Positions 53,123 through 58,501 of a stretch of DNA of 64,000 nt are shown piece by piece. The position numbers were made by a program. Position 1 is the stretch's first letter; every line of letters begins with the position of its first letter. The stretch comes from Gekko japonicus. Lineage: Eukaryota. The stretch covers positions 2,724,140-2,788,139 of the forward strand of contig NW_015167061.1 in the NCBI RefSeq assembly GCF_001447785.1, read 5' to 3'.

Positions 53123-56100
53123 TGAGGAAATAGGCGTTAACAATCCCTGCCATATGAGGTGATCATGACAGTGGCTCAAGGGAGGAACGGGTGGGTCTTA
53201 TGGAATTAACCTCTGACCGCCAGGGCTGGGAGGCAGCATCGGGGGAAGCCTCGGCCTCTATGGGCTGTCTGTTGGTCACCCTGTGACACGGGATGCTGGA
53301 CTAGATGGAACTTGTCTGGTTATCACCTTGGCCCAATGGATGTGGGTAAGCAAGTTATTAGGAGCTGGATATAATCAGAAGAGTTTTCGGCTAAACATTA
53401 GAAAGAACTTCCTGACAGAGCAGTTCCTCAGTGGAACCGGCTTCCTCGGCAGGGGGTGGGCTCTCCTTCTTGGGAGGTTGTCAAGCAGAGGCTGGATGGC
53501 CAACTGACACAGCACTGCTGATTCTGTGAACTGAGGCAGATCATGAGAGGGAGGGCAGGAAGGGCTGCCTCAGAACTTAGTTCTCGTGGCCCTTTCTTAT
53601 ACCCCCAGGGGAATGCCAATTGCCACTTTGGGGTCAGGAAGCAACTTTTCTCCAGGCCAGTTTGGCTGGAGAACCTGGAGGGTTTTTTTTTGTCACGTTC
53701 TGGGCATGGAGCAAGGGGTCACTGGGTATGTGTGTGTGAGTGTGGGGTATTTGTGAATTTCCTGCCTTGTGCAGGGGGTTGGACTAGATGACCCTGGAGG
53801 TCCCTTCCAACTCTTAAGATTCTATTACTCTGTAATGGAAAAATAAAGATCAGCTTGTACCCTTGAGACCAGGCAGAGAGTGTTTCAGGTCCAAAGTATA
53901 AAATGTAGGTTCTCTCCTTTAGGGCCCTTGTCTCCTACCTTCTTTCCCCAAGCGACTCCTACATCTCACCAGTGTTCCCTCTAAGCTGAGTGTGAGCTAG
54001 CTCAGTTTTTTAGCCTCCGGCTCACAGTTTTTTGTCTTGGCTCAGGGAGGATGGATCCAGAGCAAACTAATTTATGCAGTAGCCAAATCGCTTGCTCACA
54101 ACTTTAATGCCAGTCGCTCACAAAGTAGAATTTTTGCTCACAAGACTCCACAGGTGAGAGGGAGCATTGCATCTCACTCATCTAACTTCTCAGAATTCTA
54201 CAGCTGAATGTTCTCAGCCATTAGAACATGCAGCCTCTAACATCATAGCGGTACAGCTGGTAGTGGAGCTTGACTACAGAGACAGCAAGTTTTCAACTTG
54301 TTATTTCTTCTCCCCTTCCCTGCTTGTTTTTTAATTGAAGCACTTGAATGTGGAGTTCCCCAGTATGGAAGCCCTGCTGGATCATTACTCTGGGATGAAA
54401 GGGGGCCTCTTCTGCTCCTTGGCTGCAGGCCGGGCACACCATTGCTATGAGGAACAAGATTATTCAGCAGAGAATGAATGGAGAGAGCAGAGTCGCTCGC
54501 AGGCCTCGTGGCTATTTGGTCCCAGTAAGTCTCTGGCGGTCCAGCAGGAACTGGGCTAACACTTGGCAAAGGGACTCCTGGATCATCATTTGCATCATCC
54601 ACGTAGAACCGTACAGACTGTTTTGTGGTATATCCAAGCTGCATCACGCTTTCCTCTTTCTGGCTAGCCGTGTGGTTCTGGTGTGGTACAGATCCTCCGT
54701 GGTGTGGGTCTAGTTTCAGCTTAGTAGAATATGAATGTCCATCGCAAACTTGTCTTAACCCTTCTAGCCAAAGGCTTCCAGCACCTCACCGCCATCTCTG
54801 GGCAGTAAGGAGTGGTCAACACCCTCTTCATTGTTCTAGTAATTCAGGGAAAGATATCATGTTAACCTCAGCTGTAGAAGATTCATCATCACTGATTAAT
54901 TACTTTTGGTAAGAATAATTCTCAAGGCTTGTGGTTATAGTAAGCTTTCTCTCTCAGCCAGTTCATACGTTTGCCTTTAAGCCCTACCCTTATATTTTTA
55001 AATTGGAGTATGAGAAGGAGCAATAAAAGACAATCTGTAAATTAATATACATTGACGCATCCGTTCTAGAAGGGTATTCAGATTAGTCTGTTGCAGGAAA
55101 ACACCATGAGTCTTATGATACCTTATGGATTTGTAGTATTTCATTACATCCATTAGTTTCCAGAGCCTGCCTTTTGGGGGGGGGGGGGCATGTGCAGAAT
55201 AAATGCAGAAACGTTCCTTCCATACAAATGAAAAGGTTTAAAGGATGCTGTGAAGAGTCACATTTATTCCAAAGTGTCCCCCCCCCCCCCCCCCGAAATG
55301 TTTGTGGCTTATCCTCTTGTGGCCTCTGGCGAGGCTGATAGGTGCCTGCCTGCCTGCCTGCTGTCAGGTTTCATTTGCAAGAAATGTCATGTGAGCATGC
55401 TCATATTTATTAACCATATGAAGTAATGCTGCTGTTTAAAGTACTTATATTTAAAATATGTTTATTTGTAGCCTGCCTTTCTCACAGGGACTCAAGGCAG
55501 ATTACGTAGAGTCAAACTGTGCAATAGGAGTGGAATAACAAGAATTAGAAACAATGCAAAAACAAGGCCAAAAACAAGGCAGGCAGCAGACACGAGGTCT
55601 CATAAACAATGCAAGGAGGTGTGGAAATGGAATTACGGATGTAGAAAGTAACGGCAGTCAGAGCGAGAGGACCATGGACGGCGATCATGTCGCTTGCGTA
55701 AGAGTGGCGCCCTCGGCTCCCTTATCTTGGCGGCCTTAATGGATTCCCTCCGGAGCCGCCCTGGCTCTTTCCGGCGGTCTGACCTCCCCAGGAGGCCCAG
55801 GCTGCAGCCGAGCGCTGGTTCCGAGCCCCACGAGAGGGGGCCCCGCCTCTGCGCTGCAGACGGAAGCTCCCCCTTAGGGTTGCCACGGCCTCCAGGTGGG
55901 GCCTGGGGATCTCCCGCTTTGCCAACTGATCTCCAGCCGGCAGAGACCAGCTCCCCTGGAGGAAACGGCCCCAAACCCCGCCCTCTCCCGGCTCCAACCC
56001 CACCCCCCCAAAGTCTCCAGGTGTTTTCCAGCCCAGACCTGGCAGCCCCTCCTCCCGTGGGCGGGGCGTCCCGCCGCTGTATTTGTGCTCCGAAATAAAG

Positions 56101-58501
56101 GCTTTCAACCCGCGTCTGTCTGCCGCGTCTGCTCTGAACGGGGGGGGGGGGGGGGTCACCGCCGCCGTAGTTTAAAAAAAATCGTTGGGCGCCTCAGTTG
56201 CCGCGACAACGGTCAGTCTGGCCGTCGGGTGTTTTTTACGTCAGATCCCGTCCGGCCCAAATCGGATTGGTCGCCACGAGCCAACAGAGAGCGGGGATTG
56301 GTCGCAGGCAAAGCGAGCCCCGATTGGCTAAAGAACTTCCCCTGAGGCCATGGGGGAGCGGGGCTCGTGGCACAGGAGCTGTCCCCCTCTGATTGGCTCC
56401 CGTGGCGCAGGAGGCGGGCTTGGCAGGAACTCGGCTCGGCCGATTAGAGGATGGGGCTTAGCCCCGCCTGCAGAGGGGGCGGTGTTGTTCTCTGATTGGT
56501 GGGCCCCGAGAGCGGCGCTTCCGAGAGGGAAGGCGGAAGATGGCGGCGGCTGCTTCGGCGTGGCTGGCGCTGACGGCGGCCGTGGCCGTGCTGGGCCTGG
56601 CCCGGGCGGCGGCGGCGACGGTGGGCGGCGGGTCCCGCACTCTGGTGCTGCTGGAGAACATGAACCTGAGGGACACCCACTCGCTCTTCCTGCGCAGCCT
56701 GGCCGGTGAGGGAGGGGGGAGGCGGCGGCGGCCGCCTCCGACGCGCCCCGAGGCAACCCGGGACTCAGGCGGACCCCCGGGCGGCGGAGTGGGCGGAGGG
56801 GTCCGCGGCCGCCTCTCGGACCACCTGCGGGCGAGTCGTGGCTGCTCTGCGTGCGGAAAGCCGGAGCCCTCGGCCGGCGCGGTTGCTTCGTAGCCGCTGC
56901 TCGTTGGGACATACGGCCCTAAGAGAGAAGCCCGCGTTGGATCGGGCCAGTGGCCCCTCCGTGCCGCACACCAGGGGACACCTCAGGGGGTCCGGGCGAG
57001 CCTGAGCCGGGCGAGTCCCTGCGGGAGGCAGCCGCCCTGCTTTCTGAGAGGGAAAGCCCCGCCGCCCTTGGGCCTCGTGGGCGCACCGACCCTGCGGCCG
57101 CTCCCCAGTCTCCCGTTACGCTCTGCAGAGCAGACTCCACTGGGGAGGCCCGGCCTGGAGGAAGCCCGCCTAGCCTCGAGCAGGGCCCCTGCCTGGTGGA
57201 ACGGTCTCCCGAGTGAGAGCCAGGCCCTGCGGGACTTAATGCGGAGATGTCCGGCCGGGGCTATGGTCGTGGCGGCGGGGGCCTAGACCGTATGGGCCTC
57301 CTCTGCTTTGGCTGGCTGGCTTTGCTGCCATCATGCCATCCAGGGCTAATCTCATCTGCCGCGCCCACTCTCAGATTAGCTGTGTCTACCTGTAGGCACA
57401 CATAGGGCGCCTTGGAGTAGATGGACAATTGCTGCCATGTCCGTAGTGTAGATTCTGACATTGATTTTAAAGTGTTTGTTATGTTTTAATTACATTGAGC
57501 TTATGCTGTGGTAAACTGCCCCGAGCTTGCTTGCAGGGAAGGGCAGTCTAAAAGCCCTATAATACTGGAAATAAATTTGAGTCACTCTTTGCTCTCCACT
57601 CTCTAGCTGTCCAGCTTCCTTTTTGACACGTGGCGTCCAGAACTGCCCACAGTATCCCAAGCGGGGCCTTGTGCTCTCTGGCCGTCATTCATTGTTGTCA
57701 CCTTTGACTGGCTGAGTGGTCCTCCTGAGTCTCAGGCAGAGAAAGAGTCCTGTGATCCGTGCTGTCCCTGATCTTGTGACAGAGGCTGAACTTGGGATTT
57801 TCAGGCTAGAAGCTAGTGCAGTACCTTTGAGTCATCCTTCCAAAAGTCTGAGAGTGTACATCATCCCCTTTGTCCACCTACATGGCTGTCTGTCCTGAGT
57901 TGTTCCCAGCACCTCCAACCAGAGAGCTTTTAGCTGGAGAGACTGCTAAGGATTGAGCCTGAGACTGACCTTCCGTGTGCAAAGCAGGGGTTCATTCATT
58001 GAGCTCTGGTTTCTGCAAATGAAGCTGTGAAAGGAGTCGGACCATTGGTCTGCTTGCCACCTCTGCCAGGCAGTACCCTTCTAGTTGTTGTTCAGTCGCA
58101 CAGTCGAGTCTGACTCTTCGCGACCCCATGGACCAGCTCCCGCCAGGCCCTCCTGTCTTACCCTTCTAGGGTCTTAGGCAAACAAAGGTTTTTCACCCAC
58201 CACCTGAGAGCCTTTTAGACAGAGATGACCCAGTTGAGAGCCTCGAGGTGTGACACACGGACCCGTGCCAGAGGCTGCACTCCGCTGTCCCCCATCACCA
58301 GAGCCAGCCTTCTGTGCCTGTGAAAACAGTACCTTTCTTCCTCCACTCTGTTGACTCTTGCCTGAAAAGCAGGATCCCAGGGGGAGCAGAACTCTGGCTT
58401 GTGGGGCAGGTCTTCCATTCAGCACTTTGTGCTGTATAAGCTGTAATTAGTATTTATTCAATGCATTCTTGAGTGTGGTTTCTGGCAGACTGGTGGACTG
58501 A

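What the first reader, a model, noticed from the sequence alone, without database searches (positions are those of the whole stretch)
54560..56539. KIF17 is missing from its syntenic slot between SH2D5 and DDOST
Established: the human order in transcription direction is EIF4G3-HP1BP3-SH2D5-KIF17-DDOST. Seen: here the SH2D5 stop (54559) and DDOST ATG (56540) are under 2 kb apart with no N gap. The interval holds a 3' UTR, repeat fragments and the DDOST promoter, with no kinesin motifs (GQTGxGKS, SSRSH, DLAGSE) in the ORF track. Inference: the homodimeric kinesin-2 (OSM-3 orthologue, linked to cilia, photoreceptor and dendritic transport) was deleted or relocated in this lineage. I cannot tell how widely this is shared among reptiles.
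Basis: partly seen in the sequence, partly recalled or inferred. Interest (0 to 1): 0.65.

Follow-up and report, generated by a model that had tools for sequence, protein, structure and literature searches.

The report
No KIF17 between SH2D5 and DDOST
In this stretch of a vertebrate genome the motor-protein gene KIF17 is absent from the place it holds in mammals, most likely through a clean deletion, but whether the animal has lost the gene altogether could not be tested here.

Summary
On the + strand the window carries an eIF4G-family gene, an HP1BP3-like gene, a PTB+SH2 gene with the SH2D5 hallmark, and DDOST. The SH2D5-like stop is TAA at 54557-54559 and the DDOST ATG is at 56540. The 1,980 bases between them contain no N.

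- **No kinesin signal.** 0 of 64 stop-free ORFs (>=20 aa) of the interval match Pfam Kinesin at E<=10. 0 of 588 ORFs (>=60 aa) of the whole window match at E<=0.01. No kinesin P-loop or switch motif occurs in any frame.
- **The interval is accounted for.** It holds a 3'UTR with two AATAAA signals, a short inverted repeat, one interspersed-repeat copy, and a CpG-island promoter with five CCAAT boxes.
- **The mammalian order with KIF17 is documented.** A cattle table gives the full order and a human table gives DDOST next to KIF17.

So absence from the slot is shown. Deletion, relocation and assembly collapse cannot be told apart, because no eukaryotic genome, read or transcript collection was available. 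I favour a segmental deletion (about 0.5). No paper found reports a KIF17 loss, and a 2026 screen of genes missing in all squamates does not name it. Interest is moderate to low until the rest of the genome is searched.

The parts
7853..23571 (+). 3' part of an eIF4G-family gene (EIF4G3 by position only; the paralogue was not tested). The last coding ORF, 23356-23568, ends ...[15 protein letters not shown], followed by a stop.
   Evidence: Pfam MIF4G in 3 ORFs (best 1.9e-22) and MA3 in 2 ORFs (3.3e-14). W2 in 1 ORF (1.2e-19). ORF texts.
38586..46881 (+). HP1BP3-like gene (linker-histone H15 domains). The C-terminal basic tail ORF 45478-46878 ends ...MRKSLRVKK, followed by a stop.
   Evidence: Pfam Linker_histone in 4 ORFs of batch 36106-48361 (best 1.1e-09). 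ORF texts. The start coordinate is approximate.
48698..54559 (+). SH2D5-like gene. Putative exons: 48698-48790, 49642-49722, 50239-50313, 50625-50771 (PTB core), 51222-51476, 51867-52041, about 52565-52671, 52906-53065 (SH2 core with GAFLLW), and 54341-54559 (last exon, stop TAA 54557-54559).
   Evidence: Splice-site scan, with boundaries chosen by eye. Pfam PID E=0.13. Atlas PID 0.93 and SH2 0.90. Trp at the FLVR place matches what one search reports for SH2D5.
54560..55220 (+). Probable SH2D5 3'UTR, with AATAAA at 55022-55027 and 55198-55203.
   Evidence: The cleavage site is inferred; there are no transcript data.
55176..55294 (.). Imperfect inverted repeat (arms 55176-55205 and 55261-55290, 30 nt, 77%) whose outer ends are G13 and C17 runs.
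55875..56048 (.). Copy of an interspersed repeat. A second, inverted copy lies at 31189-31368 (71% over 190 aligned positions).
   Evidence: Self-BLAST. The family was not named by any tool.
55600..57300 (.). CpG island spanning the DDOST promoter, exon 1 and the start of intron 1 (GC 0.57-0.78, CpG obs/exp 0.53-0.97 in 200-base windows).
56265..56499 (+). Five GATTGG (inverted CCAAT) boxes, at 56265, 56296, 56322, 56391 and 56494, upstream of the DDOST ATG.
   Evidence: 5 of the window's 33 matches fall in these 235 bases.
56540..56706 (+). DDOST (OST48) exon 1: ATG, signal-peptide-like start, then donor gtgag.
   Evidence: Pfam OST48_N positions 1-25, E=0.17.
58502..62883 (+). Further DDOST exons inside ORFs 58502-58720, 58872-59204, 60681-60923, 61337-61768, 62063-62296 and 62623-62883. 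The gene runs on beyond what was examined.
   Evidence: OST48_N positions 24-61 (4.8e-11), 60-91 (0.0011), 91-121 (1e-05), 155-186 (0.0042), 189-237 (4.4e-15). OST48_MD 20-59 (2.3e-11).

Best explanation
KIF17 is really absent from the slot between SH2D5 and DDOST. The most likely cause is a segmental deletion that removed the whole gene, promoter to 3' end. That left the SH2D5 3'UTR about 1 kb from the DDOST CpG-island promoter.

Shown: the two flanking genes keep the mammalian order and orientation. The 1,980 bases between them are contiguous and fully taken up by a UTR, repeats and a promoter. They hold no kinesin-like coding sequence.

Inferred: KIF17 once lay here in this lineage's ancestors, it was lost by deletion rather than moved, and the animal now relies on heterotrimeric kinesin-2 (KIF3A/KIF3B/KAP3) alone for anterograde ciliary transport. 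The dispensability argument is recalled knowledge: KIF17 knock-out mice and zebrafish are viable.
For: - Flanks identified: DDOST and SH2D5-like. Upstream lie an HP1BP3-like gene and an eIF4G-like gene. All are on the + strand.
- This is the order printed for cattle, minus KIF17. DDOST next to KIF17 is also printed for human.
- The interval is 1,980 bases without N. Its longest stop-free + strand ORFs are 155 and 148 aa. A kinesin of about 1,000 aa (length recalled) needs more than 3 kb of coding sequence alone.
- Pfam Kinesin: 0 of 64 interval ORFs at E<=10 and 0 of 588 window ORFs at E<=0.01. The same per-ORF approach found the neighbours' exons.
- Kinesin motifs: none.
- Neighbouring intergenic spacers are equally short. 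HP1BP3 stop to the putative SH2D5 ATG is about 1.8 kb, so a 2-kb spacer looks normal for this genome rather than scarred.
- Deletion is the common route for such absences. A 2026 study attributes 36 of 53 squamate gene absences to segmental deletions with conserved flanks.
Against: - Nothing outside the 64-kb window was searched, so a KIF17 copy elsewhere is not excluded.
- No outgroup locus was examined. The ancestral sauropsid order is assumed from mammals and from recall.
- No read-level check of the junction was possible.
- The screen for genes unannotated in all 30 RefSeq squamates never names KIF17 in its main text (0 occurrences of 'kif'; gene lists read). If the window is squamate, this argues that some squamates have an annotated KIF17. 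A loss would then be lineage-restricted, or the gene sits elsewhere.
- KIF17's stalk and tail have no Pfam model, so a short relic of those exons would not have been seen.
Confidence: 0.5

Rival explanations
1. Relocation. KIF17 still exists in this genome but lies elsewhere, through duplication to a new site followed by loss of the original copy, or through a rearrangement that rejoined SH2D5 and DDOST.
For: - Absence from the slot fits relocation as well as loss.
- KIF17 is not named among the genes unannotated in all RefSeq squamates. This is compatible with an annotated copy somewhere in squamate genomes, if the window is squamate.
- The same study assigns 17 of its 53 absences to rearrangements.
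Against: - Both flanks keep the mammalian order and orientation with a tidy 2-kb spacer. That is what a deletion leaves.
- Moving a multi-exon gene out while resealing the flanks needs two events.
- No kinesin sequence occurs anywhere in the 64 kb on either strand.
Confidence: 0.17
2. Assembly artefact. The gene is in the animal at this place, but the contig collapsed or was misjoined across it, for example between two copies of a repeat or in a hard-to-sequence G+C-rich stretch.
For: - The region is G+C-rich (0.57-0.78).
- It holds three long G or C runs (13, 17 and 16 nt) and an interspersed repeat.
- The window has five N runs elsewhere, so the assembly is not gap-free.
Against: - No N in the interval.
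- G/C runs >=11 nt are ordinary in this window: 33 in 64 kb.
- The only repeat with a second copy in the window is 71% identical to it, too diverged to cause a collapse by itself.
- The interval reads as a coherent UTR, spacer and promoter.
Confidence: 0.15
3. No event in this lineage. KIF17 never lay between SH2D5 and DDOST in the ancestors of this animal, so the mammalian order is the derived one or the arrangement differs widely outside mammals.
For: The only printed gene orders I could find are mammalian (cattle, human). Searches for chicken or other non-mammal listings gave none.
Against: - The four other genes of the block are in the mammalian order and orientation here, which argues for an old, conserved block.
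- From recall only: the order is the same in chicken, frog and fish.
Confidence: 0.08

Closest known systems
Segmental-deletion gene losses in squamates (Salve, Sonal and Vijay, BMC Biol 2026, PMC13005343; abstract and Results parts 1-2 of 3 read, term search of the main text)
   Same: Flanking genes keep order and orientation, the intergenic distance is contracted, and there is no gap at the site. This is the pattern that study uses for IL34 and others.
   Different: - KIF17 is not named in that paper's main text. Its tables are supplements and were closed.
- Only one window of one genome was seen here, with no read validation, no genome-wide search and no outgroup distances.
- The window's taxon is unverified.
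KIF17 / OSM-3, the homodimeric kinesin-2
   Same: This is the gene expected in the slot from the cattle and human listings. A review describes it as a kinesin-2 member involved in ciliogenesis, cone outer-segment structure and disc shedding in zebrafish (passages).
   Different: Nothing in the interval or the window has its motor domain or motifs. Nothing here belongs to that family.
'Missing' genes of G+C-rich sauropsid regions that later proved to be present (recalled from the bird literature; also discussed)
   Same: A gene appears absent in a G+C-rich, compact region.
   Different: Those cases are usually whole unassembled regions or gaps. Here both neighbours are assembled and joined without N, so a hidden gene would have to lie somewhere else.

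Membership tests
Kinesin motor gene (KIF17) in the interval | Pfam Kinesin motor domain (PF00225) in some reading frame | tested here: not met
   0 of 64 ORFs >=20 aa overlapping 54560-56539 at E<=10. 0 of 588 ORFs >=60 aa of the window at E<=0.01.
Kinesin motor gene (KIF17) in the interval | P-loop GQTxxGK[ST], switch I SSRSH, switch II DLAGSE (motifs recalled) | tested here: not met
   No strict hit in six frames of the window. One loose P-loop hit at 36699-36722 (- strand), in a stop-broken context.
Kinesin motor gene (KIF17) in the interval | Room for roughly 1,000 codons plus introns (length recalled) | tested here: not met
   The interval is 1,980 bases. The longest + strand ORFs are 155 and 148 aa.
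SH2D5 (upstream flank) | N-terminal PTB/PID domain | tested here: inconclusive
   Pfam PID E=0.13, below the cut-off, in ORF 49992-50822. Atlas first hit 0.93 with 193 shared features to a cluster in which 49% of members carry PID, and a second hit at 0.89 to a cluster with PID in 97%. PDB phmmer gave 0 hits.
SH2D5 (upstream flank) | C-terminal SH2 domain | tested here: inconclusive
   Atlas 0.90 with 184 shared features; 28 of 30 hits are SH2 clusters. Pfam SH2 was not hit by the single-exon ORF at E<=1. PDB phmmer gave 0 hits.
SH2D5 (upstream flank) | FLVR arginine replaced by tryptophan (in humans only SH2D5; PMC7530234, passage read) | tested here: met
   The exon at 52907-53065 reads ...GAFLLWAE.... 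The register against G-x-F-L-V-R was set by eye, not by an alignment tool.
DDOST / OST48 (downstream flank) | OST48_N and OST48_MD domains, collinear over successive exons | tested here: met
   Profile positions 1-25, 24-61, 60-91, 91-121, 155-186 and 189-237 of OST48_N, then OST48_MD 20-59, in ORFs ordered along the + strand. Three hits lie above the curated cut-off.
HP1BP3 (second gene upstream) | Several linker-histone H15 domains followed by a basic tail | tested here: met
   Linker_histone in 4 ORFs. Lys/Pro-rich tail ORF 45478-46878. The number of domains was not counted separately.
Gene loss by segmental deletion | Flanking genes conserved in order and orientation, with no assembly gap | tested here: met
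Gene loss by segmental deletion | Intergenic distance contracted relative to outgroups | not testable with these tools
   No outgroup loci were available. The large human distance is recalled only.
Gene loss by segmental deletion | No orthologue anywhere else in the genome, reads or transcripts | not testable with these tools
   Only the 64-kb window is held.
Gene loss by segmental deletion | Reads span the junction | not testable with these tools
   No read data.

The most novel reading that the evidence does not exclude
A vertebrate lineage, probably a reptile, has lost the homodimeric kinesin-2 KIF17 (the OSM-3 orthologue) outright. The gene was excised cleanly between SH2D5 and DDOST. That would make the animal a natural knock-out of a motor held to serve cone outer segments, olfactory cilia, dendritic cargo and spermatids.
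Probability: 0.45. Interest if true: 0.5.

Novelty: new member of a known kind. Interest (0 to 1): 0.3.

Why it matters
KIF17 is kept from nematodes to mammals and is credited with roles in cilia, cone outer-segment turnover and dendritic transport (review passages). Yet laboratory knock-outs are mild (recalled). A wild lineage that lacks it altogether would be an independent test of how dispensable the accessory ciliary motor is, especially in animals with cone-rich retinas. It would also add one more case to the list of clean segmental deletions in sauropsid genomes. If the gene turns up elsewhere in the genome, the finding shrinks to a small synteny change.

Tried and rejected
- **Whole-frame translation.** I used all stop-free ORFs instead.
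- **Pfam on nine SH2D5-candidate ORFs.** This gave only one weak PID hit.
- **PDB phmmer.** The SH2-core and PTB-core exons gave 0 hits at E<=10.
- **Rfam and ARAGORN.** Rfam at gathering scores and ARAGORN found nothing in the window.
- **Self-BLAST of 54300-56800 against the window.** It found one repeat plus a G-run match.
- **Long G/C runs as a sign of an artefact.** Rejected, because 33 such runs occur across the window.
- **A possible relic of kinesin exon 1.** The ORF 55539-55736 ends ...VACVRVAPSAPLSWRP and faintly recalls the kinesin N-terminal motif. Rejected: no Pfam hit at E<=10, and no R-x-RP match in the interval.
- **A KIF17-like 'EPL-stop' C-terminus in the + frames of the interval.** None found.
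- **Literature.** One search was wasted: its term rule did not force KIF17. Searches found no non-mammalian listing of the gene order.
- **Left undone.** ORFs of 20-59 aa outside the interval were not scanned.
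Full report
**What is at the coordinates**

The sequence of 54000-57200 shows a TAA at 54557-54559. It closes the ORF ...HLNVEFPSMEALLDHYSGMKGGLFCSLAAGR...SKSLAVQQELG. An ATG at 56540 opens MAAAASAWLALTAAVAVLGLARAAAATVGGGSRTLVLLENMNLRDTHSLFLRSLAG, followed by a gtgag donor. N runs in the window lie only at 202-307, 430-657, 1066-1164, 43482-43496 and 48363-48635. None is in the interval. I did not fill or look up any of them.

**Identity of the flanking genes**

All spliced genes were searched exon by exon, as stop-free ORFs or single putative exons. 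I built and searched no joined model, so that step is left out.

- **DDOST is secure.** Successive + strand ORFs hit Pfam OST48_N at profile positions 1-25, 24-61, 60-91, 91-121, 155-186 and 189-237, then OST48_MD at 20-59. E-values go down to 4.4e-15.
- **The upstream gene is harder to name.** Of nine candidate ORFs, only one gave a Pfam hit: PID at E=0.13, below the cut-off. PDB phmmer gave nothing for its two best exons.
- **The ESM Atlas supports a PTB+SH2 gene.**
  - Exon 50625-50771: the nearest cluster scores 0.93 (193 shared features) and 49% of its members carry PID. The second cluster scores 0.89 with PID in 97%.
  - Exon 52907-53065: it falls among SH2 clusters at 0.90 (184 shared features), and 28 of 30 hits are SH2.
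- **The SH2 exon carries the SH2D5 hallmark.** It reads GAFLLWAE, with tryptophan where SH2 domains have the 'FLVR' arginine (register set by eye). A review states that in humans only RIN2, TYK2 and SH2D5 lack that arginine, and that SH2D5 has tryptophan (PMC7530234, passage read). A PTB-then-SH2 gene with that tryptophan is SH2D5.
- **Further upstream.** A gene with Linker_histone hits in four ORFs and a basic tail ends at about 46881. This is HP1BP3-like. An eIF4G-family gene has MIF4G, MA3 and W2 hits, and its last ORF ends at 23568. The paralogue EIF4G3 is assigned by position only.
- All four genes are on the + strand.

**Is the expected order real?**

A cattle selection-scan table prints 'EIF4G3, HP1BP3, SH2D5, KIF17, DDOST, PINK1, CDA...' for one locus (PMC11905691, passages). 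A human table prints '...PINK1, PINK1-AS, DDOST, KIF17' (PMC6345810, passage). I found no such listing for a bird, reptile, frog or fish. That the order is ancestral for sauropsids rests on my recall and on the conservation of the other four genes here.

**Is there any kinesin?**

- Regexes for the kinesin P-loop, switch I and switch II (motifs recalled) found nothing kinesin-like in six frames of the whole window.
- All 64 stop-free ORFs of 20 aa or more that overlap the interval were scanned one by one against Pfam at E<=10. Seven families appeared, each in one ORF. The best was E=0.025, and one was the OST48_N hit of DDOST exon 1. Kinesin was not among them.
- All 588 ORFs of 60 aa or more in the window, both strands, were scanned at E<=0.01. 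Kinesin matched 0 of 588, while the neighbours' domains were recovered.
- ORFs of 20-59 aa outside the interval were not scanned. KIF17's stalk and tail have no Pfam model, so a small relic of those exons could have escaped.

**What fills the interval**

- AATAAA signals at 55022 and 55198 fit a 3'UTR of about 0.5-0.65 kb for the SH2D5-like gene.
- A 30-nt imperfect inverted repeat, whose outer ends are G13 and C17 runs, lies at 55176-55294.
- 55875-56048 is a copy of an interspersed repeat. Its other copy lies inverted at 31189-31368, 71% identical.
- From about 55600 to 57300 runs a CpG island.
- Five of the window's 33 GATTGG boxes lie within 235 bases just upstream of the DDOST ATG. This is a CCAAT-box promoter.
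- Rfam and tRNA scans found nothing.
- The longest + strand ORFs in the interval are 155 and 148 aa, G+C-rich and without family hits.

There is neither room nor signal for a kinesin gene of about 1,000 codons (length recalled).

**What this means**

Absence from the slot is shown for the sequence as assembled. Four readings remain.

1. **Deletion of the gene, about 0.5.** I favour this reading. Both flanks keep order and orientation. The spacer is as short as the neighbouring HP1BP3-SH2D5 spacer, about 1.8 kb. Clean segmental deletions are the usual route to such absences. Salve et al. 2026 attribute 36 of 53 squamate absences to them.
2. **Relocation, about 0.17.** It needs two events but cannot be excluded from 64 kb.
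3. **Assembly collapse, about 0.15.** It is less likely. There is no N in the interval. The long G/C runs are ordinary here, 33 of 11 nt or more in the window. The one repeat with a second copy is only 71% identical to it.
4. **The slot never held KIF17 in this lineage, about 0.08.** This is the least likely reading.

**Literature**

No paper in the library couples KIF17 with a loss in reptiles. The searches and paper counts were:

- KIF17 + lizard: 11 papers
- KIF17 + Anolis: 1 paper
- KIF17 + reptil: 7 papers
- KIF17 + 'gene loss': 12 papers
- KIF17, squamates, 'gene loss': at least two of the three terms

I saw only listings and abstract starts, and none deals with such a loss.

The 2026 screen for genes unannotated in all 30 RefSeq squamates never mentions 'kif' in its main text. 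The gene lists in the Results parts I read do not include it. If the window is squamate, this suggests that KIF17 is annotated in at least some squamates. A loss here would then be lineage-restricted, or the gene lies elsewhere.

**Limits**

- I do not take the window for human.
- No eukaryotic genome, read, transcript or protein collection was available.

**Verdict**

If real, this is one more lineage-specific gene loss by segmental deletion, a known kind of event. The gene lost would interest cilium and photoreceptor biologists. Interest is moderate to low until the rest of the genome is searched.

Noticed in passing
whole window, e.g. 40443-40461, 46513-46531, 49969-49987, 52058-52077, 55278-55294: Very many long G or C homopolymers: 33 runs of 11-20 nt in 64 kb. 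This is far above what the base composition would give. They lie in introns, spacers and promoters alike.
   Followed up: partly
window 56265-56499: Five GATTGG (inverted CCAAT) boxes on one strand within 235 bases upstream of the DDOST start codon, inside a CpG island. This looks like a multi-NF-Y-site promoter.
   Followed up: partly
window 55176-55294: A 30-nt imperfect inverted repeat capped by G13 and C17, enclosing an AATAAA on each arm. It sits at the likely end of the SH2D5 3'UTR. Its origin is unexplained.
   Followed up: no
window about 1356-6700: Retroelement-like ORFs inside an intron of the eIF4G-family gene. There is a weak RVT_1 hit in this batch (E=0.0081). ORFs ending in a tyrosine-recombinase-like tail...HSTRAVA...ATW...F..HY..., were seen by eye, which suggests a DIRS-like element.
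   Followed up: no
window 59377-59907 (+) and 35071-35568 (+): Long ORFs that look like retrotransposon fragments by eye. One lies in a DDOST intron, the other in the spacer between the eIF4G-like and HP1BP3-like genes. Neither gave a Pfam family at E<=0.01.
   Followed up: no
window 48363-48635: A 273-base N run lies just upstream of the putative SH2D5 start codon (48698), in the spacer after the HP1BP3-like gene. The SH2D5 promoter and 5' end are therefore incompletely seen.
   Followed up: no
window 33848-34159 and 54001-54204: Two + strand ORFs share a near-identical peptide...SKLIYAVAKSLAHNFNA...RIFA.KTPQ.RGSIA..., so another interspersed repeat family has a copy in the last SH2D5 intron. 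Seen by eye only.
   Followed up: no
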